Part shown: positions 3,181 through 63,015 of the stretch, piece after piece | Layout: each line of letters starts with the position of its first letter | How positions within the stretch are numbered: the stretch's first letter is position 1 | Virus record (IMG/VR): IMGVR_UViG_3300020205_002848 | Location: 14,561 to 78,560 of that record | Origin: a virus | Length of the DNA stretch: 64,000 nucleotides | Strand: one strand, 5' to 3' | Notes under the pieces: model-generated | The model's database searches: none | The model's input: only the letters and a program-made list of their open reading frames with translations | Told to the model about the DNA's origin: nothing | Made by a program: the position numbers and the translations under genes

Positions 3181-4335
3181 ATGCTTTATAAATTTAAATC
3201 TTTCTTAAAAGAAGAATTGAGAATCAGTGAAATGGATGGGTCTTCTTTATCTACATTAAAAGTAAATTTAATGGATAGATTAGTTGAATATAGAACCTAT
3301 ATTCTATCATCTATTATATACAACTTTGATACAAATAAAATAGAATATAAAGATTTAGACTCTATTGACACTAAAGTTATTATCAGAGAATTATCAAATG
3401 AATTCACTGAAGAAGTGGTTCAAGAAATAAATATAGAATCATTTCTTAGAAAACTAAATCAAATATTAGAACTTAGAAAAAGAAATACAAAAAGAAAAAT
3501 CAGAGAATCTTTTGACGATTATTTTAAATCATTAAATGATAGAATAGAACAAATTCATCAATCTGATACAAAAGATAACCTTGATGAATTTGAAGGAGAA
3601 GAATCTCTTTTGGATAGAAAAAAATATGAATCTGAGAAGTTTAAACTACAAGTTGAATTAGCAAAACTTCAAGAATGGGTTATTAAAAATAATAAAAAAG
3701 TAGCTATTGTCTTTGAAGGTAGAGATGCTGCTGGAAAAGGTTCTACAATCAAAAGATTTATTGAATATTTAAACCCAAAAGTCTACAGAGTTGTTGCTTT
3801 AGGTGTCCCAACAGAAGAAGAGAAAGAAAACTGGTTCGAAAGATATGAACAACACCTACCTAATGATGGAGAAATAGTATTTTTTGACCGTTCTTGGTAC
3901 AATCGAGCGGTTGTCGAGCCGGCAATGGGTTATTGTACTGAAGAACAGTATGGCGAATTTATGAACAAAGTAGTTAAATGGGAAGAAAAACTAATAAAAG
4001 ATAAGGATATAACTTTAATTAAATTTTGGTTCTCTATAACACAAGATAAACAAATTAAAAGATTCGAATTAAGACAAGCATCCCCATTAAAATATTGGAA
4101 ATTCTCACCAAATGACGCAAAAGTACTTGATAAATGGGAAATAATTGGAAACTTTAAAAGACAAATGTTTACACAAACATCATCAAGAAAATCACCATGG
4201 GTTATTATTAATTCAAATGATAAAAAAATAGGTAGACTTAACGCAATAAGATATGTTCTTTCTAAAATAAACTATGAAGATAAGGACCCTGAAATGTGTA
4301 AGTATTACCCAGAGGTTGTTAATATTTTAATTTAA
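3181..4335 (+). CDS. ppk2: polyphosphate kinase 2 with about 140-aa N-terminal extension
   Basis: FEGRDAAGKGSTI Walker A, FFDRSWYNRA, KFWFSI, LKYWKFSPND. Confidence 0.95.
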   Translation: MLYKFKSFLKEELRISEMDGSSLSTLKVNLMDRLVEYRTYILSSIIYNFDTNKIEYKDLDSIDTKVIIRELSNEFTEEVVQEINIESFLRKLNQILELRKRNTKRKIRESFDDYFKSLNDRIEQIHQSDTKDNLDEFEGEESLLDRKKYESEKFKLQVELAKLQEWVIKNNKKVAIVFEGRDAAGKGSTIKRFIEYLNPKVYRVVALGVPTEEEKENWFERYEQHLPNDGEIVFFDRSWYNRAVVEPAMGYCTEEQYGEFMNKVVKWEEKLIKDKDITLIKFWFSITQDKQIKRFELRQASPLKYWKFSPNDAKVLDKWEIIGNFKRQMFTQTSSRKSPWVIINSNDKKIGRLNAIRYVLSKINYEDKDPEMCKYYPEVVNILI

Positions 4336-10763: not shown

Positions 10764-11546
10764 ATGTTTGATATGGTAAAGAAATTAAAATTTAAAATTA
10801 AATCGGATAAAATCTCTGACTTTATTGATAAGTTGGAAGATTTGACTAAGATAGAAGATAGTATAAAACTTAAAATAGATTCTGATAATATTTTGATGTA
10901 TTCTATTTTAGGTGGTAACATTATGTTAGCATTTAAAAACTATCTTGTTGATACTAATGATTACTTTGAAGGTAATGAGTTTGATTTTACATTAGATGTT
11001 ATAATTGGAAATGCTAAGAAATTCGTTAAAAATCTTAATTTCTTAAAAGAATCACCTAATGTAAGTATCGAGTTCACATATAAAGAATCACAAGATGATG
11101 ATAGTATTATGAACGCTAGATCAATTCAGGTTGTTGGTGGTAAACTAAAAGTAAATTGGTTGGCCGCTGAGCATTATGAAGTTAGAGATATAAACAAAGA
11201 TAGTCTTAAAAATAATCTTAATATAAAGAATAGAAAGTGGTACTTTAATATAGATAAACAAGATTTCTCAGATGTTAAAAAACTTTCTAATATAAATAGC
11301 GATAGGATTATTAATATTAGCATCGTATCTGGTAAAGTTATATTTTCTGAGAAGTCAGCATGGGAGTTAGATATTGATGCAATAGAAGAAGAAAGAAATG
11401 AAAATCTGATATTGAATAAAAAATTCCTATCTTGTATTAATGATGAAAAGAATATACAATTTAGTATTTTTGAAAACTTTATGTTAGTTAAAGACGATTG
11501 CTCAAATTTAATGCTCTCGTTTGAACAATCATTCGAAGATGATTAA
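10764..11546 (+). CDS. putative sliding clamp (gp45/PCNA-like)
   Basis: about 260 aa, two-fold alpha/beta pattern typical of clamps, near polymerase; motif-level only. Confidence 0.5.
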   Translation: MFDMVKKLKFKIKSDKISDFIDKLEDLTKIEDSIKLKIDSDNILMYSILGGNIMLAFKNYLVDTNDYFEGNEFDFTLDVIIGNAKKFVKNLNFLKESPNVSIEFTYKESQDDDSIMNARSIQVVGGKLKVNWLAAEHYEVRDINKDSLKNNLNIKNRKWYFNIDKQDFSDVKKLSNINSDRIINISIVSGKVIFSEKSAWELDIDAIEEERNENLILNKKFLSCINDEKNIQFSIFENFMLVKDDCSNLMLSFEQSFEDD

Positions 11547-55900: not shown

Positions 55901-56005
55901 AACACTTATTTTTTTAATTGTTTTAAAAATATACAAAATTTATAAAAATAAAAAAATGAAATTAAAAATAATTAATTTCATTTTTTAAAATTGTTTAAAA
56001 ATCAG

Positions 56006-56092
56006 CGGAAAGTGTAGGATTCGAACCTACGGTACCTTTCGGTACAACAGTTTTCAAGACTGTCTCGATAAACCGGACTCTGACAACTTTCC
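56006..56092 (-). tRNA. tRNA-Ser(UGA)
   Basis: GGAAAGT acceptor, ACAGT-CTTGAAA-ACTGT anticodon arm, long variable arm, GGTTCGAATCC. Confidence 0.95.
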
Positions 56093-56096
56093 TGGG

Positions 56097-56170
56097 TGGA
56101 GGATAACGGAGTCGAACCGTTGACCCCCTGCGTGCAAGGCAGGTGCTCTAGCCAGCTGAGCTAATCCCCC
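56097..56170 (-). tRNA. tRNA-Ala(UGC)
   Basis: GGGGGAT/ATCCTCC acceptor with G3:U70, CCTGC-CTTGCAC-GCAGG, GGTTCGACTCC. Confidence 0.95.
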
Positions 56171-56263
56171 AAATAATAAATATATATATAATTATTTAAC
56201 TACCTCTTTTTTTATATGATCGTTGATATTAAAAGTTTATAGGGTTTTATTGTATTTTTTATT

Positions 56264-57171: not shown

Positions 57172-57192
57172 ATGAATTTAATATATACAGTT

Positions 57193-58206
57193 ATGATTAA
57201 CAAATATAATGAATTTATTTTAGAAAAACAATTTGAGGAAATAATTAGTGATATTTTTAGAATTGTTGAATCAGAAGGTCGAATGACTGGTGATAACACA
57301 TATGAGTGGGATTTCTCTAAAAAGGTTGATGATTCTGATATATCTGATAGAAGTTTAATAAAACTTAAAGAGTTTATTTTAAAACTTTCAAAAGAGCAAG
57401 CTAGAAAGTATTATATAAAACTAATTAATAAACTAAAAAATCTACCAGATAGATTAAGAAGATTTTTAATTATGCACTATACTAGTGTCTTTTTAGGAAT
57501 AGCCTCACTTGGATATCTAACAAATGTGGAAGAGCCTGTTAAGACTGATAAATCATCAACAAAGGTTGAGCAAGAAATAGAACCTTCTGTTAATAGTGAA
57601 ATAATAGAACCTTCTATTAAAAAGGAAATAATAGAACTACATAAAAAATCTTCTTTTGAAGATGCTCAATCAGCAGTAAAAGAAGCTGAGGCTGGTTACT
57701 CTGATGATAGAGATGATACGGGTAACTGGGTTGAAGTTCCTGGATATGGAAAAAGATTTGTAGGTACCAATCATGGTATATCTGCCCCAATTTTACAAAA
57801 ATATTTAGGTAGAATTCCTAAAAGAGAAGATATGGAAAAACTTTCCTATGAAACAGCTCTTAAAATATACAGAAAAGATTACTGGGATGCTCAAAATTTA
57901 GGATTATTATGTGATCAATCTGTTGCAAATATAATATATGATGGGTGTGTTAATCAAGGAGTGGAAGGAATGAGACAAGTTATATCAGATGCTATAAGTG
58001 ATCAAAATATAAAGATATCAGGTGATGTTTATTCCAAAAAGAATATCGGTAAAATAAAATCATCTGATCAAAAAAAGTTATTTAACTCTATTAAAAAACA
58101 AAGAGAGATTAGATATAAGAACGCGCCAACTTGGTATAAACATGGCGAAGGGTGGATGAATAGATTGTCAGGTATAGGATATGAAAATAATAATGATATG
58201 ACATGA
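57193..58206 (+). CDS. GH108-like lysozyme with N-terminal extension
   Basis: EAGYSDDRDDTG...GTNHGIS, IYRKDYW, DGCVNQG, GWMNR; start MINKYNEFILE after late motif. Confidence 0.85.
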   Translation: MINKYNEFILEKQFEEIISDIFRIVESEGRMTGDNTYEWDFSKKVDDSDISDRSLIKLKEFILKLSKEQARKYYIKLINKLKNLPDRLRRFLIMHYTSVFLGIASLGYLTNVEEPVKTDKSSTKVEQEIEPSVNSEIIEPSIKKEIIELHKKSSFEDAQSAVKEAEAGYSDDRDDTGNWVEVPGYGKRFVGTNHGISAPILQKYLGRIPKREDMEKLSYETALKIYRKDYWDAQNLGLLCDQSVANIIYDGCVNQGVEGMRQVISDAISDQNIKISGDVYSKKNIGKIKSSDQKKLFNSIKKQREIRYKNAPTWYKHGEGWMNRLSGIGYENNNDMT

Positions 58207-58799
58207 AATACTTAAAAAAATTTGAAGATATTAAAATTCCAATAAATGTTGGGGATACTATTCTTGGTGGTCGTTTTAAGAACAAGAAGACTCTTGTTAA
58301 AAAGATTGGAAAGAACGCAAAAGGTGATATTACAATTAATGGAAAACCCCTTCTTAAATATAGAATTGTTAAAGAGTCTTTAAGTTCAGAAGTAGATGAA
58401 TATTTAAAACATATAGAAGGTGATGGATTTGAAATATCTACATCAGATTCTAAAAACAATGGTTATGTTTTCCAGAACATAAGAATCTATAAACCAAAAA
58501 GTCAAAGTACTGGATATGAATATTCAAATTGTATAAATTTTGATTATAAAGAAATAGGTGATGAGGTTTATAGATTTTTACAAGAGACGAGTCTCAACAT
58601 ATCTTATTTATATTTAATAAAAGATGGACGTTCAAAAGCTCTTTTCTCTCCGCTTTTAATTAGTGAATTCCCTACTTTTTCTCCATCAGTTATCTCTGAT
58701 GTTACTTCTCGTGTGAGAGAAATTATTTCATTAGAAGATATTTTAAACAACAATGATAATTTCGGCATGATTAAATCAATTTGTATTGGAACTAACTAA
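58203..58799 (+). CDS. hypothetical putative internal head protein
   Basis: MKYLKKFED; VGDTILGGRFKNK module. Confidence 0.7.
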   Translation: MKYLKKFEDIKIPINVGDTILGGRFKNKKTLVKKIGKNAKGDITINGKPLLKYRIVKESLSSEVDEYLKHIEGDGFEISTSDSKNNGYVFQNIRIYKPKSQSTGYEYSNCINFDYKEIGDEVYRFLQETSLNISYLYLIKDGRSKALFSPLLISEFPTFSPSVISDVTSRVREIISLEDILNNNDNFGMIKSICIGTN

Positions 58800-59035: not shown

Positions 59036-59290
59036 ATGTCAAATAGTAAAGAATCAAATGGTATCGGATTAGCAGGTATACTGTTCATAGTTTTTTTAGT
59101 CTTAAAATTAACAGGTAATATTACTTGGTCTTGGTGGTGGATTACTTCACCGATTTGGATACCAGTCGCTTTATTTGTATCATTTTTTACAATAACTGTA
59201 ATAATCGTCTATATATTTTTAATTATTGGTGGATCCAATGCTAAAATTATAGTAGAAAATTGGAAAGAAAAGCTTAAAATTAAAAAATAA
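59036..59290 (+). CDS. small membrane protein (WSWWW family)
   Basis: VFLVLKLTGNITWSWWWITSPIWIP. Confidence 0.7.
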   Translation: MSNSKESNGIGLAGILFIVFLVLKLTGNITWSWWWITSPIWIPVALFVSFFTITVIIVYIFLIIGGSNAKIIVENWKEKLKIKK

Positions 59291-59354
59291 TCACTATATT
59301 TGTATCAAGGTATTTAATTATACCGAAACAAAAATTAATAAATATTCCTATATA

Positions 59355-59566
59355 AGTTAGTCGCGGCAACTTCTAATGAATAATAGGCCGACTTTTGCCG
59401 AGGTTGAGGGGATAATAAATCTGTTGGTCCCGCAGTAGATGTCAGTATCAATCATATCGATACGGTTGAATTAAAAGGTGTATGATAAATAGGTGGATGA
59501 ACTGTGAATTTTGAAACCATTACGAACCGATTAGTGTCTGATTCACACAGACACAATCGGTTTTTT
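59355..59566 (+). ncRNA. candidate structured ncRNA with three tandem pseudoknots
   Basis: GC-elevated intergenic block without a long ORF, between promoter-like motifs and a terminator; pairings listed in findings. Confidence 0.55.
59525..59566 (+). terminator. intrinsic terminator
   Basis: AACCGATT-A-GTGTCTG/CAGACAC-AATCGGTT followed by T-run. Confidence 0.8.
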
Positions 59567-59624
59567 CATTTTATATCTTCAACATGTGTAACTCCTTTAG
59601 CAGGCGATAAATCTCTCATATCAG

Positions 59625-59816
59625 TTACTTAGTTGGGTCTCCTTTTTTTCTCTTTTCTTTCTTAAATGTAAAACCTATATCACCAGAGCCTTCGGTTCCG
59701 GTTGTTCCTGCTAATGCTCCTGGTTGAGCAGCAGAAACCGCACCCATACCTGATGTTGTAGAAGCGTTACATGTTGCATCTTCTTTAAATAATCTATATG
59801 ATTTTAAAAATCTCAT
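59625..59816 (-). CDS. small putative internal head protein, possibly frameshifted near the 3' end
   Basis: MRFLKSYRLFKED; the -1 frame continues VTDMRDLSPAKG... Confidence 0.6.
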   Translation of the reverse strand: MRFLKSYRLFKEDATCNASTTSGMGAVSAAQPGALAGTTGTEGSGDIGFTFKKEKRKKGDPTK

Positions 59817-59860: not shown

Positions 59861-60085
59861 ATGAGTAATAAAATAGATTTGCATGGTATAAAACACGAAG
59901 ATGTCAGAAGGTCATTGGATAGATTCTTCTGGGAGAAAATGCAAAATAATCACAGTGAAGTTGAAATAGTTACGGGTATAAGTATAAAAATGAAAGAAAT
60001 AGTTAAAGGTATTTCAAATGAATATAATTTTAGAGTGGAAGAAATTATATTAAACCCTGGTATATTAATTGTTTATATTAAATAA
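59861..60085 (+). CDS. Smr-domain protein
   Basis: KIDLHGIKH...EIVTG...NPG. Confidence 0.8.
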   Translation: MSNKIDLHGIKHEDVRRSLDRFFWEKMQNNHSEVEIVTGISIKMKEIVKGISNEYNFRVEEIILNPGILIVYIK

Positions 60086-60367
60086 TTATAAATATTTAAC
60101 AACATCTGGTCCTGGTTTTTGAACATTAACCGCCATATATCCATCCTTTCCTCTTTGATTCAAATCTAAATCATCTATTATTGTCTTAGAGAATTCTAAA
60201 GGGGTTATATCATTTTCAATTTGTGAATCTATATCATATTTGCTAATCAATTCCCTTATATAAACAGCGGTTAAATTAAACTGTGATAATATAGTGGTTA
60301 GTTCTTGAACAAACTCTTCTAAACAATAGACAGATTCAAATAATTTATAAGATTTAATATAATTCAT
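60086..60367 (-). CDS. hypothetical putative internal head protein
   Basis: MNYIKSYKLFES. Confidence 0.65.
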   Translation of the reverse strand: MNYIKSYKLFESVYCLEEFVQELTTILSQFNLTAVYIRELISKYDIDSQIENDITPLEFSKTIIDDLDLNQRGKDGYMAVNVQKPGPDVVKYL

Positions 60368-60775: not shown

Positions 60776-62296
60776 ATGATTAGAAAATATTTCGACTTTG
60801 TTAATGAGTCTCTAGAATTGATATTAGAGTCTGATGTTGTATTCTCGAAAAAATTCAGATTAGCTCTTTCTAAAATGGAAAATCCATTGGCTAAATCTAT
60901 TTTAAGTATTGAGAATGAGGATCTACCAGTTGCGTCAAATTATTTTGATATTTCTAAAGATAAAAATGATACATTAAGTTTCATACCGGATAGAAAGGCT
61001 AAAGAAATTTTAGGAGACACTAAAGAAAATGTTAGATTTATTGGATCAGGAGGTGGTTGGTTAAGACACTCTGAATCAAATGCTAATATATTTAAAGATT
61101 TAGGTTATGAACCAGAGGGTTCTGCTTATCAACCAAACTCTTCTGAAGTTGGTGAAGTAGTTTCTAAAGTTACTGGAAAATCATCTGGTAAAATTTGGGT
61201 CTATGTCAAATTTCCAAATGGTAAAGGGGTTTTTAATCAAGATAAACTACAAGCATTTGACCAAAGACAAAATGAAGTTTGGTCTAAAAATAGACAAGAG
61301 GTTAAAATCGGTAGAGCTATAAGAGCTTTGTTAAAAACTGCTGGTGTTGAAGCTTTAGATAAAGATATAGAAGTTTTTGTAAATCAATATAAAGCAACAA
61401 TCGATAAAATGAATGATATATTCCAATATTTTGATGTTGTTGATGGTGAAGAAATTGGGAATTGGTATCATTATAATACTTATTATAACAGAAGTGGCAC
61501 ATTGGGATCATCTTGTATGTCAAATGTTAGTACAAGATATTTTGATATTTATATTACCAATAAAGATGTTTGTAAATTGGTTATACTTAAATCAACTGAA
61601 GATGATAGTAAAATTGTGGCTAGGGCTCTTCTCTGGAAATTAAGAAATGGTAAACAGTTCATGGATAGAATCTATACTATAAATGATTCCGATGTAAATC
61701 TATTTAGAGACTATGCAAAAGAAAATGGATGGTATTCTAAATATTACAATAGTAGTTCTGATAATTCACAAGCTTATGCACCTGATGGATCAACTATTCA
61801 ATTAGACCTTATAGTTGATATTAGAAAAGGTGATTATAATGGGTATCCATATTTAGACACAGTTAAATATTTTAATCCAAATTTTGGCACACTTTCTAAT
61901 GAAAAGGACGATGATGATTATACATTGGAAAATACTGATGGTACAGCACAAGGCGAATGTTCTACTTGTGATGGTCATGGTAGAGTAGATTGTTATGAAT
62001 GTGATGGGTCAGGGAGAGTAGAATGTAATGAATGTGATGGAAACGGTGACGCAGAATGTAACGATTGTGAAGGTAGTGGTAATGAAGAATGTTCTACTTG
62101 TGATGGTGGGGGATCAACAACCGATGATGAAGGTAATGAAGTTAATTGTAAAGACTGTGATGGTGATGGTAAAAATGATTGTGGAAATTGCGATGGTCAT
62201 GGTAGAGTAAATTGTGGTAAATGTGATGGTGATTGTGATCAAGAATGTTATAACTGTGATGGTGAAGGTAGAGTAGATTGTAGAGAATGTAATTAA
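60776..62296 (+). CDS. GSCM/ARALLW family protein with extended DnaJ-type CxxCxGxG zinc-finger array
   Basis: LGSSCM, ARALLW, FMDRIY, YPYLDT; 10 CxxC units. Confidence 0.8.
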   Translation: MIRKYFDFVNESLELILESDVVFSKKFRLALSKMENPLAKSILSIENEDLPVASNYFDISKDKNDTLSFIPDRKAKEILGDTKENVRFIGSGGGWLRHSESNANIFKDLGYEPEGSAYQPNSSEVGEVVSKVTGKSSGKIWVYVKFPNGKGVFNQDKLQAFDQRQNEVWSKNRQEVKIGRAIRALLKTAGVEALDKDIEVFVNQYKATIDKMNDIFQYFDVVDGEEIGNWYHYNTYYNRSGTLGSSCMSNVSTRYFDIYITNKDVCKLVILKSTEDDSKIVARALLWKLRNGKQFMDRIYTINDSDVNLFRDYAKENGWYSKYYNSSSDNSQAYAPDGSTIQLDLIVDIRKGDYNGYPYLDTVKYFNPNFGTLSNEKDDDDYTLENTDGTAQGECSTCDGHGRVDCYECDGSGRVECNECDGNGDAECNDCEGSGNEECSTCDGGGSTTDDEGNEVNCKDCDGDGKNDCGNCDGHGRVNCGKCDGDCDQECYNCDGEGRVDCRECN

Positions 62297-62301
62297 TAGA
62301 G

Positions 62302-63015
62302 ATGATAATAACTAAATTTAAACTATTTGAAGCGAAGTCAAAAGAGACTAAAAAGATAGAAGAGGTTGAGATATCACCCGATGTGAAAAAAGAAATTAAA
62401 AGATTTGATACAAAGTGGGGAATTGAATTAGACTCGACTTTTACTCTGACTGAAATTGATGTAATATCAGAAGGTCTATCCTATTATAATACTAAGTTTA
62501 TAAAGAATAGAATTGATAATATAGTTAGAGAAGATTTGGGGTCGGTTCATGGTAGATGGAAAGACACACCAAAGAAAAAACAAATGACTCTTAACCCTAA
62601 AATTTTCAAGTTTAAAAGAAAATGGAAAGAAGGTAAAACTGAAATACCATATGCTGTATTTGTTATAGTACATGAAACAGCTCACTGTGTTGACCATATT
62701 GAAAAGGTATCCTTCTCTAAAAAATGGCAAGCTATCTCTGGTTGGAAGAAATGTGATATAAATGAAAAAGTACCAGAGGGTTATATTAGATATGTTGAAA
62801 AAAGAAGTGGTAGAGAAATAGCTGGTCATAAAAGATCAAATTGGATACACAAAGAAGATGCTGACTTCTGTAGAAAATATACATCTAGAAATCCAAGAGA
62901 AGAATTTGCTGACTCTTTAGCATTTGTTATTTTAGATCTTGAAGAAAAAATGGATGGACCTGGATGTCAAAAAAAGCTAATAATAATAAAGGATTTACTT
63001 AAAAAGATAGATTAA
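62302..63015 (+). CDS. zincin-like metallopeptidase
   Basis: VHETAH...YTSRNPREEFADS. Confidence 0.75.
   Translation: MIITKFKLFEAKSKETKKIEEVEISPDVKKEIKRFDTKWGIELDSTFTLTEIDVISEGLSYYNTKFIKNRIDNIVREDLGSVHGRWKDTPKKKQMTLNPKIFKFKRKWKEGKTEIPYAVFVIVHETAHCVDHIEKVSFSKKWQAISGWKKCDINEKVPEGYIRYVEKRSGREIAGHKRSNWIHKEDADFCRKYTSRNPREEFADSLAFVILDLEEKMDGPGCQKKLIIIKDLLKKID

What the first reader, a model, noticed from the sequence alone, without database searches (positions are those of the whole stretch)
59355..59566. Candidate ncRNA built from three consecutive H-type pseudoknots
Seen: a block of about 210 nt after TATATTTG (59295) and CTATATAA (59348) motifs, ending in a strong terminator. PK1: AGTCG 59359-63/CGACT 59389-93 crossed with CGGCAA 59364-69/TTGCCG 59395-400. 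PK2: GGGAT 59409-13/GTCCC 59427-31 crossed with ATCTGTTG 59419-26/CAGTAGAT 59433-40. PK3: GTATC 59445-49/GATAC 59459-63 crossed with ATCATAT 59451-57/GTATGAT 59480-86. I do not recognise the family. Speculative roles: decoy for type III toxin-antitoxin toxins (whose antitoxins are pseudoknot arrays), tmRNA-derived fragment, or nuclease-resistant RNA.
Basis: partly seen in the sequence, partly recalled or inferred. Interest (0 to 1): 0.7.

Follow-up and report, generated by a model that had tools for sequence, protein, structure and literature searches.

The report
New structured RNA gene of megaphages
The gap holds a real, free-standing gene for a roughly 260-base, tightly folded non-coding RNA that large freshwater phages of Bacteroidota keep almost unchanged; it fits no catalogued RNA family and its job is still unknown.

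Summary
Comparison with 47 homologues plus 2 divergent ones from lake phage contigs and two 630-640 kb phage genomes shows a real RNA gene on the + strand, about 59307-59566.

It has a Bacteroidota-type sigma-A -7 box (TATATTTG), a 5' hairpin (P1), an A-rich single strand, seven further helices and an intrinsic terminator. In the structure-aware alignment 96% of cells pair, against 28-45% when partners are slid, and 28 of 53 pairs show changes on both sides.

Of the three proposed H-type pseudoknots:
- PK3 is confirmed.
- PK1 is really a 6-bp loop-loop kiss between two hairpins. Its AGTCG/CGACT stem is not conserved.
- The second stem of PK2 has no support.

A second loop-loop kiss joins a new hairpin (P7) to the terminator loop.

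There is no Rfam match, no conserved ORF, no tandem repeats and no tRNA-like domain. Each genome carries one copy, and the distribution among related phages is patchy. Lake metatranscriptome contigs cover the RNA.

Function is unknown. My best guess is an early, stable, trans-acting decoy or scaffold RNA. A self-assembling RNA is the main rival. This scan found the same RNA before on other DNA (e1-5970548).

The parts
59295..59302 (+). -7 promoter box TATATTTG (Bacteroidota sigma-A consensus TAnnTTTG). It predicts a start at about A59307. The -33 TTG/TTTG seen in most homologues is degenerate in the window.
   Evidence: TAnnTTTG is conserved at the same distance from P1 in every homologue listed. 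The consensus and its position (-12 to -5) are given in PMC9723704 and PMC7366714.
59309..59324 (+). P1, the 5'-terminal hairpin (GGUAU 59309-13 / AUACC 59320-24), followed by invariant GAAA 59325-28.
   Evidence: All 5 pairs change on both sides and 100% of cells pair. Variants include GAUAU/AUAUC, GGUAA/UUACC, GGUUA/UAACC and AUCCA/UGGA.
59325..59346 (+). A-rich single-stranded linker with the invariant stretches GAAA and AAAUA among the 47 homologues. It differs in the divergent homologues L088/L089.
   Evidence: Invariant runs 59325-28 and 59340-44. One- and three-base indels occur here. L088 carries a different linker.
59347..59387 (+). P2 (CCUAU 59347-51 / AUAGG 59383-87) enclosing hairpin P3 (GUUAG 59356-60 / CUAAU 59373-77, G59363-C59370). 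The 6-base P3 loop is CGGCAA 59364-69.
   Evidence: P2: 5 of 5 pairs change on both sides (CCUGU/ACAGG, CCUUC/GAAGG, UCCGU/ACGGA, UCUCAU/AUGAGA). P3: 6 of 6 pairs change on both sides. The window clade has the P2 5' strand shifted by one base.
59364..59400 (+). K1, a loop-loop (kissing) pairing: CGGCAA 59364-69 (P3 loop) with UUGCCG 59395-400 (P4 loop).
   Evidence: 100% of cells pair. C-G becomes U-A in 4 sequences. This pairing was not part of the covariance model, so the alignment was not fitted to it.
59389..59406 (+). P4 hairpin (CGACU 59389-93 / GGUUG 59402-06) with the loop UUUGCCGA.
   Evidence: 97.8% of cells pair and 2 pairs change on both sides. One is the window's own U-A to C-G change. 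The closing pair occurs as C-G, A-U and G-C.
59409..59440 (+). P5 hairpin (GGGAU 59409-13 / GUCCC 59427-31) with a 13-base loop, and the most conserved stretch of the RNA (59417-59437, AUCUGUU..CCGCAGUAG).
   Evidence: Invariant in 47 sequences. L088/L089 have GGAUU/AAUCC, which gives two compensatory pairs, but keep AUCUGUU and CCGCAGUAGAU. The PK2 stem shows only pair-breaking variation.
59445..59486 (+). PK3, a classical H-type pseudoknot. P6 is GUAUC 59445-49 / GAUAC 59459-63. Its loop AUCAUAU 59451-57 pairs with GUAUGAU 59480-86. The crossing loop 59464-79 is A-rich.
   Evidence: P6: 5 of 5 pairs change on both sides and 99.1% of cells pair. Second stem: 4 of 7 pairs change on both sides and 97.5% of cells pair; it was not fitted by the model. 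L088 has an extra double change, UC to CU with GA to AG.
59491..59519 (+). P7 hairpin. P7a is AGGU 59491-94 / ACCA 59516-19. The conserved internal loop is GGAU 59495-98 / UGAA 59512-15. P7b is GAA 59499-501 / UUU 59509-11. The 7-base loop holds GUGAA 59504-08.
   Evidence: P7a occurs in 10 different pair combinations in a fixed register (GAGU/ACUC, AGAU/AUCU, GAAA/UUUC, UAGU/ACUA, AGAA/UUCU, AGUA/UACU and others). P7b shows GAG/CUC once. The internal loop is RRAU/UGAA in 41 of 43 sequences.
59504..59546 (+). K2, a loop-loop pairing: GUGAA 59504-08 (P7 loop) with UUCAC 59542-46 (terminator loop).
   Evidence: It covaries as GCGAA/UCGC (three lineages), CUGCGAA/UUCGCAG (L040) and GUGGG/CCCAC (L026). 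Every homologue has the motif in its terminator loop.
59527..59566 (+). Intrinsic terminator: a 13-bp interrupted stem 59527-59560 with the 7-base loop AUUCACA, then the U tract 59561-66.
   Evidence: The stem sequence and length differ among homologues (7-17 bp) but a hairpin plus U run is always present.

Best explanation
What it is (shown; my confidence about 0.95): a free-standing gene for a non-coding RNA of about 260 nt on the + strand, roughly 59307-59566. It is carried in one copy by a subset of very large T4-like freshwater phages.

How it is made. Shown from sequence and conservation: it has a Bacteroidota sigma-A type promoter and an intrinsic terminator. Inferred: the unmodified host RNA polymerase therefore transcribes it, which means early in infection.

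How it is built. Shown by covariation: a 5'-terminal hairpin, an A-rich single strand, a bent hairpin (P2-P3) whose loop kisses the loop of the next hairpin (P4), an ultra-conserved hairpin (P5) with flanks, an H-type pseudoknot (PK3), and a second bent hairpin (P7) whose loop kisses the terminator loop.

How it most likely works (inferred; the confidence below refers to this part). It acts in trans as a stable, compact RNA. Both ends are buried in structure, which would protect it from exonucleases. Its invariant surface is about 40 nt around 59395-59440, plus the conserved RRAU/UGAA internal loop. That surface binds a conserved macromolecule of the host, or a phage protein encoded elsewhere. 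The RNA would sequester or re-direct this partner, acting as a decoy, sponge or RNP scaffold for host take-over or counter-defence. It does not act by coding, by cis regulation or by long antisense pairing.
For: Real gene:
- 47 homologues plus 2 divergent ones were found in IMG/VR, JGI metagenomes and two huge-phage genomes.
- 96.2% of cells pair, against 28-45% for slid partners. 28 of 53 pairs change on both sides, and 0 of 500 shuffles reach this. P7 and K2 covary as well.
- Many G-U pairs fix the strand as +.
- The -7 box sits at a constant distance from P1 in all homologues (PMC9723704).
- A terminator is always present.

Trans-acting and independent:
- The flanking genes differ or are inverted in L003, L007, L026 and L054 while the unit stays intact. 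The next downstream ORF is convergent in 12 of 19 loci.
- There is one copy per genome.

Strong constraint: 65 of 188 core positions are invariant and median identity to the window is 78%. Neighbouring proteins are only 49-68% identical.

Accessory, not core: the RNA is absent from 32 related contigs, including near-complete G007, while the positive control G001 was found. This pattern is typical of take-over or counter-defence genes (inference).

Expression hint: contigs from four lake or marine metatranscriptome runs of four studies cover the RNA. X16 spans 59323-59495. An X18 contig of a relative has depth 370, against 17 or less for contigs on the flanks.
Against: - No partner has been identified. 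No conserved neighbouring gene encodes an obvious RNA-binding protein or nuclease.
- The metatranscriptome evidence comes from contigs, which cannot show strand, ends or true abundance, and may include DNA.
- The invariant core could instead be a catalytic or ligand-binding centre.
- The two covarying loop-loop pairings could be intermolecular, which would point to self-assembly rather than simple decoy action.
- Early timing is inferred from the promoter type only.
Confidence: 0.45

Rival explanations
1. Self-assembling RNA. The two covarying loop pairs (CGGCAA/UUGCCG and GUGAA/UUCAC) pair between molecules rather than within one.
For: - Covariation cannot tell pairing within one molecule from pairing between molecules in a homo-oligomer. 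In ROOL, a kissing loop first read as tertiary from covariation proved quaternary (PMC12286853).
- Geometry (inference). P4 follows the outer end of P2 with 0-1 nt between them, while P3 leaves its inner end, so the two loops point apart unless the RNA folds back.
- The terminator stem varies from 7 to 17 bp and the linker from 3 to 11 nt, while P7 is constant, with no positive correlation. A coaxial kiss within one molecule is impossible with these linkers.
Against: - Each kissing pair has one hairpin with a conserved purine-rich internal loop that could act as a bend. This would allow a side-by-side kiss within one molecule, as in the lysine riboswitch L2-L3 contact (my own knowledge).
- At about 260 nt it is far smaller than ROOL or GOLLD.
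- There are no experimental data.
Confidence: 0.2
2. Base-pairing regulatory sRNA. The A-rich single strand between P1 and P2 (59325-46), or another exposed loop, pairs with host or phage mRNAs. The folded body serves for stability or chaperone binding.
For: It has the usual sRNA layout: its own promoter, an accessible conserved single strand with invariant AAAUA among 47 homologues, and a terminator hairpin.
Against: - The linker is not kept in the divergent homologues L088/L089, which keep the folded core.
- Most of the selective constraint lies in the structured core, not the linker.
- The linker is AT-rich and of low complexity, so target prediction would be meaningless.
- About 200 nt of conserved knots is far more than a seed carrier needs.
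Confidence: 0.12
3. Catalytic or ligand-sensing RNA. The invariant centre (P4-P5 and flanks) would be a self-cleaving ribozyme core, or an aptamer that controls the terminator through K2.
For: A block of 20-30 near-invariant nucleotides held by covarying helices is the usual signature of an active site or binding pocket. K2 touches the terminator loop.
Against: - No match to any ribozyme or riboswitch family in Rfam, even at E <= 10.
- In most loci no co-oriented gene lies downstream for it to control.
- K2 pairs with the loop of the terminator, not its stem, so it does not compete with termination.
- One metatranscriptome contig runs unbroken across 59323-59495.
Confidence: 0.07
4. It is a decoy for type III toxin-antitoxin toxins (ToxI-like), or a tmRNA-derived or ribosome-rescue-related RNA.
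For: - It is pseudoknotted and phage-borne. A ~10-codon frame without a start codon ends at the invariant AUAA in most homologues (my reading).
- A small Smr-domain protein is a frequent neighbour (27 loci). Smr nucleases act at collided ribosomes (my own knowledge).
- Earlier notes of this scan report ribosome-hop cassettes in this phage (not tested here).
Against: - Type III: no tandem repeats, the units are unlike one another, and no toxin gene is nearby.
- tmRNA: no tRNA-like domain, no ARAGORN or Rfam tmRNA hit, and the ends are a local hairpin and a terminator rather than an acceptor stem.
- The 'frame' shows changes at first and second codon positions and rests on nucleotides that are invariant anyway.
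- The Smr neighbour is missing in L007, L054 and L026.
Confidence: 0.06
5. Not an RNA gene. It is a small ORF, a DNA-level signal or chance complementarity.
For: The fold energy of the single sequence is not unusual (z = -1.1). One clade has an ATG that opens MISKPKTTNIP (note; seen in L005).
Against: - Compensatory changes occur in 28 of 53 pairs.
- No ORF is shared. The longest stop-free stretch on the + strand has a median of 30 codons. Variable columns are spread 38/44/41 over the three phases, and single-base indels occur throughout.
- The ATG exists in one clade only.
Confidence: 0.02

Closest known systems
Orphan 'ornate' structured RNAs of phages and bacteria: ROOL, GOLLD, OLE and the raiA motif
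   Same: These are stand-alone, highly structured RNAs known from covariation, and many are phage-borne and of lake origin. Their function is unknown. They contain pseudoknots and kissing loops. ROOL and GOLLD assemble through kissing loops that covary (PMC12286853).
   Different: No sequence or structure match (Rfam). At about 260 nt it is far shorter than their 500-800+ nt. It is not adjacent to a tRNA island (the nearest tRNAs are 3 kb away). Its oligomeric state is unknown.
phi29 packaging RNA (pRNA)
   Same: A small phage-encoded RNA transcribed from an early promoter.
   Different: No Rfam pRNA match. The host phages are T4-like (UvsW, gp5-type baseplate, family-B polymerase), and their packaging motors are not known to need RNA. 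There are two loop pairs instead of one. Whether the pairing is intermolecular is untested.
tmRNA (RF00023)
   Same: A chain of knots and loop contacts after a short start-less frame that ends in UAA. The size class is the same.
   Different: It has no tRNA-like domain, no acceptor or CCA end, and no alanine identity. It is not found by ARAGORN or the Rfam model. Only one classical H-type knot is supported.
Type III antitoxin RNAs (ToxI, CptI, TenpI) and the phage PhiTE pseudo-ToxI decoy
   Same: Pseudoknotted RNA. There is phage precedent for RNA mimicry of an antitoxin (my own knowledge).
   Different: It has no tandem repeat array, no toxin gene nearby and no repeat-sized processing units.
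Unnamed candidates in the catalogue of about 10,000 structured RNAs predicted from IMG/VR (PMC10690425)
   Same: The data source and method class are the same. That catalogue lists 1241 candidates with intrinsic terminators. This RNA may be among them.
   Different: This could not be checked, because no supplementary text is held. The paper describes no RNA of this kind, and the core sequence occurs in no paper of the library.

Membership tests
Any Rfam 15 family | Covariance-model match at the gathering score (or at least a suggestive E-value) | tested here: not met
   The whole window gives only two tRNAs. Positions 59200-59700 at E <= 10 give only four chance hits with E of 2.8 or more.
tmRNA | tRNA-like domain: the 5' and 3' ends pair into an acceptor stem with a T arm and a CCA or alanine-identity end | tested here: not met
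   ARAGORN finds no tmRNA and there is no RF00023 hit. The 5' end is a local hairpin and the 3' end is a terminator.
tmRNA | Tag reading frame with a resume codon and a conserved C-terminal degradation tag | tested here: inconclusive
   A start-less frame of about 10 codons ends at the invariant AUAA. Its residues change at first and second codon positions and it has no ALAA-like end.
Type III toxin-antitoxin antitoxin RNA (ToxI-like) | Tandem direct repeats of about 34-45 nt, each forming one pseudoknot unit | tested here: not met
   TRF finds only a weak 15-nt two-copy match, and no direct-repeat families are found.
Type III toxin-antitoxin antitoxin RNA (ToxI-like) | Adjacent endoribonuclease toxin gene (ToxN, CptN, TenpN or AbiQ) | tested here: not met
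   The neighbours are small hypothetical ORFs, a GH108-domain protein and an Smr-domain protein. No conserved partner is seen.
Riboswitch or cis-acting leader | A co-oriented gene directly downstream whose expression the element controls | tested here: not met
   The next ORF is on the opposite strand in the window and in 12 of 19 loci examined.
ROOL / GOLLD / OLE | Match to the family model, length over 500 nt, and (for ROOL and GOLLD) a location beside tRNA arrays | tested here: not met
   No Rfam match. The length is about 260 nt. The tRNA-Ser and tRNA-Ala genes lie 3.1 kb away on the other strand.
phi29-type pRNA | Intermolecular pairing of two complementary loops that forms a ring on the portal | not testable with these tools
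   Two covarying complementary loop pairs exist. Whether they pair within or between molecules cannot be told from sequences.
Bacteroidota sigma-A dependent transcription unit | TAnnTTTG at -12 to -5, with TTG/TTTG near -33 | tested here: met
   TATATTTG lies at 59295-302, and TAnnTTTG is present in every homologue listed, 6 nt before P1. The -33 TTG is present in most homologues but degenerate in the window. The consensus is taken from PMC9723704 and PMC7366714.
Intrinsic (Rho-independent) terminator | GC-containing hairpin followed by a U tract | tested here: met
   for the window. All homologues have one, with different stem sequences.

The most novel reading that the evidence does not exclude
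The RNA is a self-assembling building block. Its two covarying loop pairs (K1 CGGCAA/UUGCCG, K2 GUGAA/UUCAC) would join molecules head-to-tail into rings, filaments or a cage. That would make it a compact ~260-nt counterpart of the ROOL and GOLLD nanocages or of the phi29 pRNA ring, made early in infection by T4-like megaphages of Bacteroidota.
Probability: 0.2. Interest if true: 0.85.

Novelty: categorically new. Interest (0 to 1): 0.72.

Why it matters
Very few phage-encoded structured RNAs have a known role, and huge phages are mined almost only for proteins. This is a small RNA gene with defined ends. Its architecture is supported pair by pair: two kissing-hairpin modules, one H-type knot and an invariant centre. 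It is under stronger constraint than the proteins around it, and it is present in only some related phages. That combination points to an RNA-based interaction with a conserved cellular machine, or to RNA self-assembly, in a phylum (Bacteroidota) whose RNA biology is poorly known. At 260 nt it is easy to transcribe, probe, image and pull down, so the question can be tested directly even though the hosts are uncultured. The family could also be added to Rfam as a marker for this phage group.

Tried and rejected
- Rfam at gathering and permissive thresholds gave nothing.
- Single-sequence folding of both strands was not significant. It cannot see knots or kisses.
- An alternative pairing of the P5 loop CUGUU with the P2 3' strand does not covary (my reading).
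- Long-range complementarity between P1 (59313-25) and the PK3 loop (59463-75), seen, is broken in the L006, L003 and L002 clades without compensation.
- Small ORFs: the ATG-led mini-ORF exists in one clade only, and there is no 3-base periodicity.
- The tiny AUG-led frames in P7 are explained by pairing.
- Weak covariance-model hits L070 and L071 lie inside coding sequence and are chance hits.
- Pattern hits L009, L010, L012, L016, L020, L030, L057, L060 and L076 are GC-rich chance matches.
- A search for a conserved protein partner in the neighbourhood found none. The large cluster 'c0' is held together by a shared N-terminal motif, not a family.
- The prokaryote genome scan found no host copy, only a chance hit in a Xanthobacteraceae MAG.
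- There is no canonical tmRNA in the three large phage genomes. This is uninformative.
- An all-against-all column covariation scan for further helices was mostly clade noise, but it led to P7.
- Linker length against terminator length was tested as evidence for kissing within or between molecules. There is no positive correlation, but three rows were cut short by internal U runs, so it is only suggestive.
- Resemblances of the core to the 16S rRNA 790-loop and EUB338 regions, recalled from memory, were not tested and were dropped.
- Metatranscriptome parts without cover say nothing.

Full report
**Where the window comes from.** The window is part of a 78.5-kb IMG/VR virus contig. Its genes (a UvsW-type helicase, a family-B DNA polymerase, PPK2, a baseplate module) and its nearest database relatives are very large T4-like phages from lakes. 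These relatives include two 635-642 kb 'uncultured phage' genomes. The finding lies in a 334-base gap between an 84-aa membrane-protein ORF (59036-59290, +) and a 63-aa ORF on the other strand (59625-59816, -).

**Checking the observation.** On this one sequence the pattern is not beyond chance. The minimum-free-energy fold has z = -1.1 and the reverse strand z = -1.15. Rfam gives no match at gathering score or at E <= 10, and ARAGORN sees only two tRNAs 3 kb away.

**Homologues.** The gap is 76-78% identical to LR745206 and LR756502, while the surrounding 5.5 kb is about 67-68% identical. Exact-pattern scans of the conserved centre found 6 IMG/VR contigs and 54 metagenome stretches. After removing GC-rich chance hits and duplicates, 47 sequences (46 distinct) remain. 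A scan with the 5' hairpin found two more divergent copies on 242-kb and 483-kb contigs. Each genome examined has one copy. No prokaryote genome holds it.

**Ends of the gene.**
- All homologues have TAnnTTTG six bases before the first helix, and most have TTG or TTTG about 20 bases further up.
- This is the sigma-A promoter of Bacteroidota, with the box at -12 to -5 (PMC9723704; PMC7366714).
- In the window the box is 59295-59302, so transcription should start at about A59307.
- All homologues end in a hairpin plus a U run. The stem sequence and length differ (7-17 bp).
- The RNA is therefore about 260 nt, roughly 59307-59566, on the + strand. The many conserved G-U pairs, which would be A-C on the other strand, confirm the strand.

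**Structure.** I built a covariance model from a hand-set nested structure, realigned all homologues and counted pairs, adding the knot and kiss pairings that the model does not contain. Of all cells, 96.2% form pairs, against 28-45% when partners are slid by 1-3 columns. 28 of 53 pairs change on both sides, and none of 500 shuffles reaches any of the five measures.

By element:
- P1 (59309-13 / 59320-24): 5 of 5 pairs covary.
- P2 (59347-51 / 59383-87): 5 of 5 pairs covary.
- P3 (59356-60 / 59373-77 plus inner pairs): 6 of 6 pairs covary.
- P4 (59389-93 / 59402-06): 2 pairs covary, including the window's own U-A to C-G change.
- P6 (59445-49 / 59459-63): 5 of 5 pairs covary.
- Second stem of PK3 (59451-57 / 59480-86): 4 of 7 pairs covary.
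- K1 (CGGCAA 59364-69 with UUGCCG 59395-400): pairs in every sequence and switches to CGGUAA/UUACCG in four. These two strands are the loops of hairpins P3 and P4, so K1 is a kissing-loop contact, not a stem of an H-type knot.
- P5 (59409-13 / 59427-31): invariant in the 47, but GGAUU/AAUCC in the divergent pair L088/L089. That gives two compensatory changes.

A scan of all column pairs led to one more hairpin, P7. A fixed-register parse shows P7a (59491-94 / 59516-19) in ten different pair combinations. It also shows a conserved internal loop RRAU/UGAA, a short P7b (GAA/UUY, once GAG/CUC), and a 7-base loop holding GUGAA. GUGAA is complementary to UUCAC in the 7-base terminator loop. This pairing (K2) covaries as GCGAA/UCGC, CUGCGAA/UUCGCAG and GUGGG/CCCAC.

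**What fails.**
- The second stem of PK2 (59419-26 / 59433-40) has no compensatory change, and its variation only breaks pairs.
- Its crossing loop would be a single G over a 5-bp stem, which is sterically implausible (my inference from pseudoknot geometry).
- AUCUGUU and CCGCAGUAGAU are nevertheless the best-conserved bases of the whole RNA, even in L088/L089. Something other than this helix may hold them.

**Not coding, not repeated.** No ORF is shared among the homologues. Variable columns fall 38/44/41 over the three phases, and single-base indels are scattered through the alignment. An ATG-led mini-ORF noted earlier in this scan on another genome (e1-5784519) exists only in the L005 clade. 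There are no tandem or direct repeats.

**Context and distribution.**
- Neighbours are small hypothetical ORFs. In L003, L007, L026 and L054 they differ or are inverted while the RNA unit is intact. The next downstream ORF is convergent in 12 of 19 loci. This speaks against a cis-regulatory role.
- Neighbouring proteins are 49-68% identical between the window and its relatives. The RNA core is 78% identical at the median, with 65 of 188 positions invariant.
- Among 32 IMG/VR contigs with a related UvsW (58-82% identity), none has the RNA. These include near-complete G007 (249 kb, all candidates scored), G013 and G020. The positive control G001 was found. The gene is therefore accessory.

**Expression.** Six metatranscriptome runs hold a share of the 2-kb query (0.06-0.12) about the size of the RNA. 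When four were laid on the window, their contigs covered the RNA:
- X16 covers 59323-59495 with two differences.
- X15 covers 59407-59573 in pieces.
- X18 has a contig of a relative at depth 370, against 17 or less for contigs on the flanking genes.

These are contigs from RNA libraries, so strand, ends and true level are not shown. I count this as a hint only.

**Mechanism.**
- Shown: a stand-alone gene with a host-type promoter, a terminator, and the architecture described above.
- Inferred: early transcription by host polymerase, protection of both ends by structure, and action in trans through the invariant centre and conserved internal loops on a conserved partner (decoy, sponge or scaffold). 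I give this 0.45.
- Main rival (0.2): self-assembly. Covarying kissing loops in ROOL proved to be intermolecular (PMC12286853). P3 and P4 leave opposite ends of P2. The terminator stem length varies while P7 does not. Against it, each kissing pair contains a hairpin with a conserved purine-rich internal loop that could bend it back for a contact within one molecule.

**Novelty.** No Rfam family matches. The core sequence is in no paper of the library. The IMG/VR catalogue of predicted structured RNAs could not be checked for it. The same RNA was found earlier by this scan on another genome (e1-5970548), with the same reading: hairpins, one pseudoknot, two loop-loop contacts and an unknown job. 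My analysis was made before I saw that note and agrees with it.

Noticed in passing
L069:1501-1660 (- strand) = LR756502.1 about 10925-11085: A second locus in the 642-kb phage has the same promoter, an identical P1 hairpin and GAAACCC. A quite different ~130-nt body follows (with an AUCCUC/GAGGAU hairpin), and then a protein ORF (MKHLKKYNESEF...). The promoter-plus-P1 module may be a reusable 5' cassette.
   Followed up: partly
window 59861-60085 (+): A 74-aa Smr-domain protein (Pfam E = 1.9e-6). Its family lies within about 1.6 kb of the RNA in 27 loci, including the otherwise non-syntenic LR756502 locus. It is absent near the RNA in L007, L054 and L026.
   Followed up: partly
window 59625-59816 (-), 60086-60367 (-), 60776-62296 (+), 62302-63015 (+), 58203-58799 (+): Many otherwise unrelated proteins here start with a shared motif of the type M-x-x-(I/L)-K-x-(Y/F)-x-x-F-E (MRFLKSYRLFKE, MNYIKSYKLFES, MIITKFKLFEAK, MKYLKKFEDIK). 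This motif glued 78 ORFs into one BLAST cluster.
   Followed up: no
window 60776-62296 (+): A 506-aa protein whose C-terminal third is a long run of CxxCxGxG-like repeats (CSTCDGHGRVDCYECDGSGRVEC...), reminiscent of the DnaJ zinc-finger. It has no Pfam hit and is conserved downstream of the RNA in about 21 loci.
   Followed up: no
window 57172-58206 (+): A 344-aa protein with a GH108 lysozyme-type domain (Pfam E = 6.6e-16) behind a long N-terminal extension.
   Followed up: no
window 56005-56171 (-): Adjacent tRNA-Ser(UGA) and tRNA-Ala(UGC) genes lie 3.1 kb from the RNA on the other strand.
   Followed up: no
window 3181-4335 (+): A polyphosphate kinase 2 (PPK2) gene in the phage (Pfam E = 1.3e-78).
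   Followed up: no
window 59472-59500: A weak 15-nt two-copy tandem match (UAAAAGGUGUAUGA / UAAAUAGGUGGAUGA) joins the 3' strand of PK3 and the 5' strand of P7. It may be a trace of an old duplication or may be chance.
   Followed up: no
window 59082-59172: Metatranscriptome contigs of several runs match only the transmembrane core of the 84-aa ORF at 85-95% identity and then run on unlike the window. This small membrane protein family seems widespread and expressed in lake communities.
   Followed up: no
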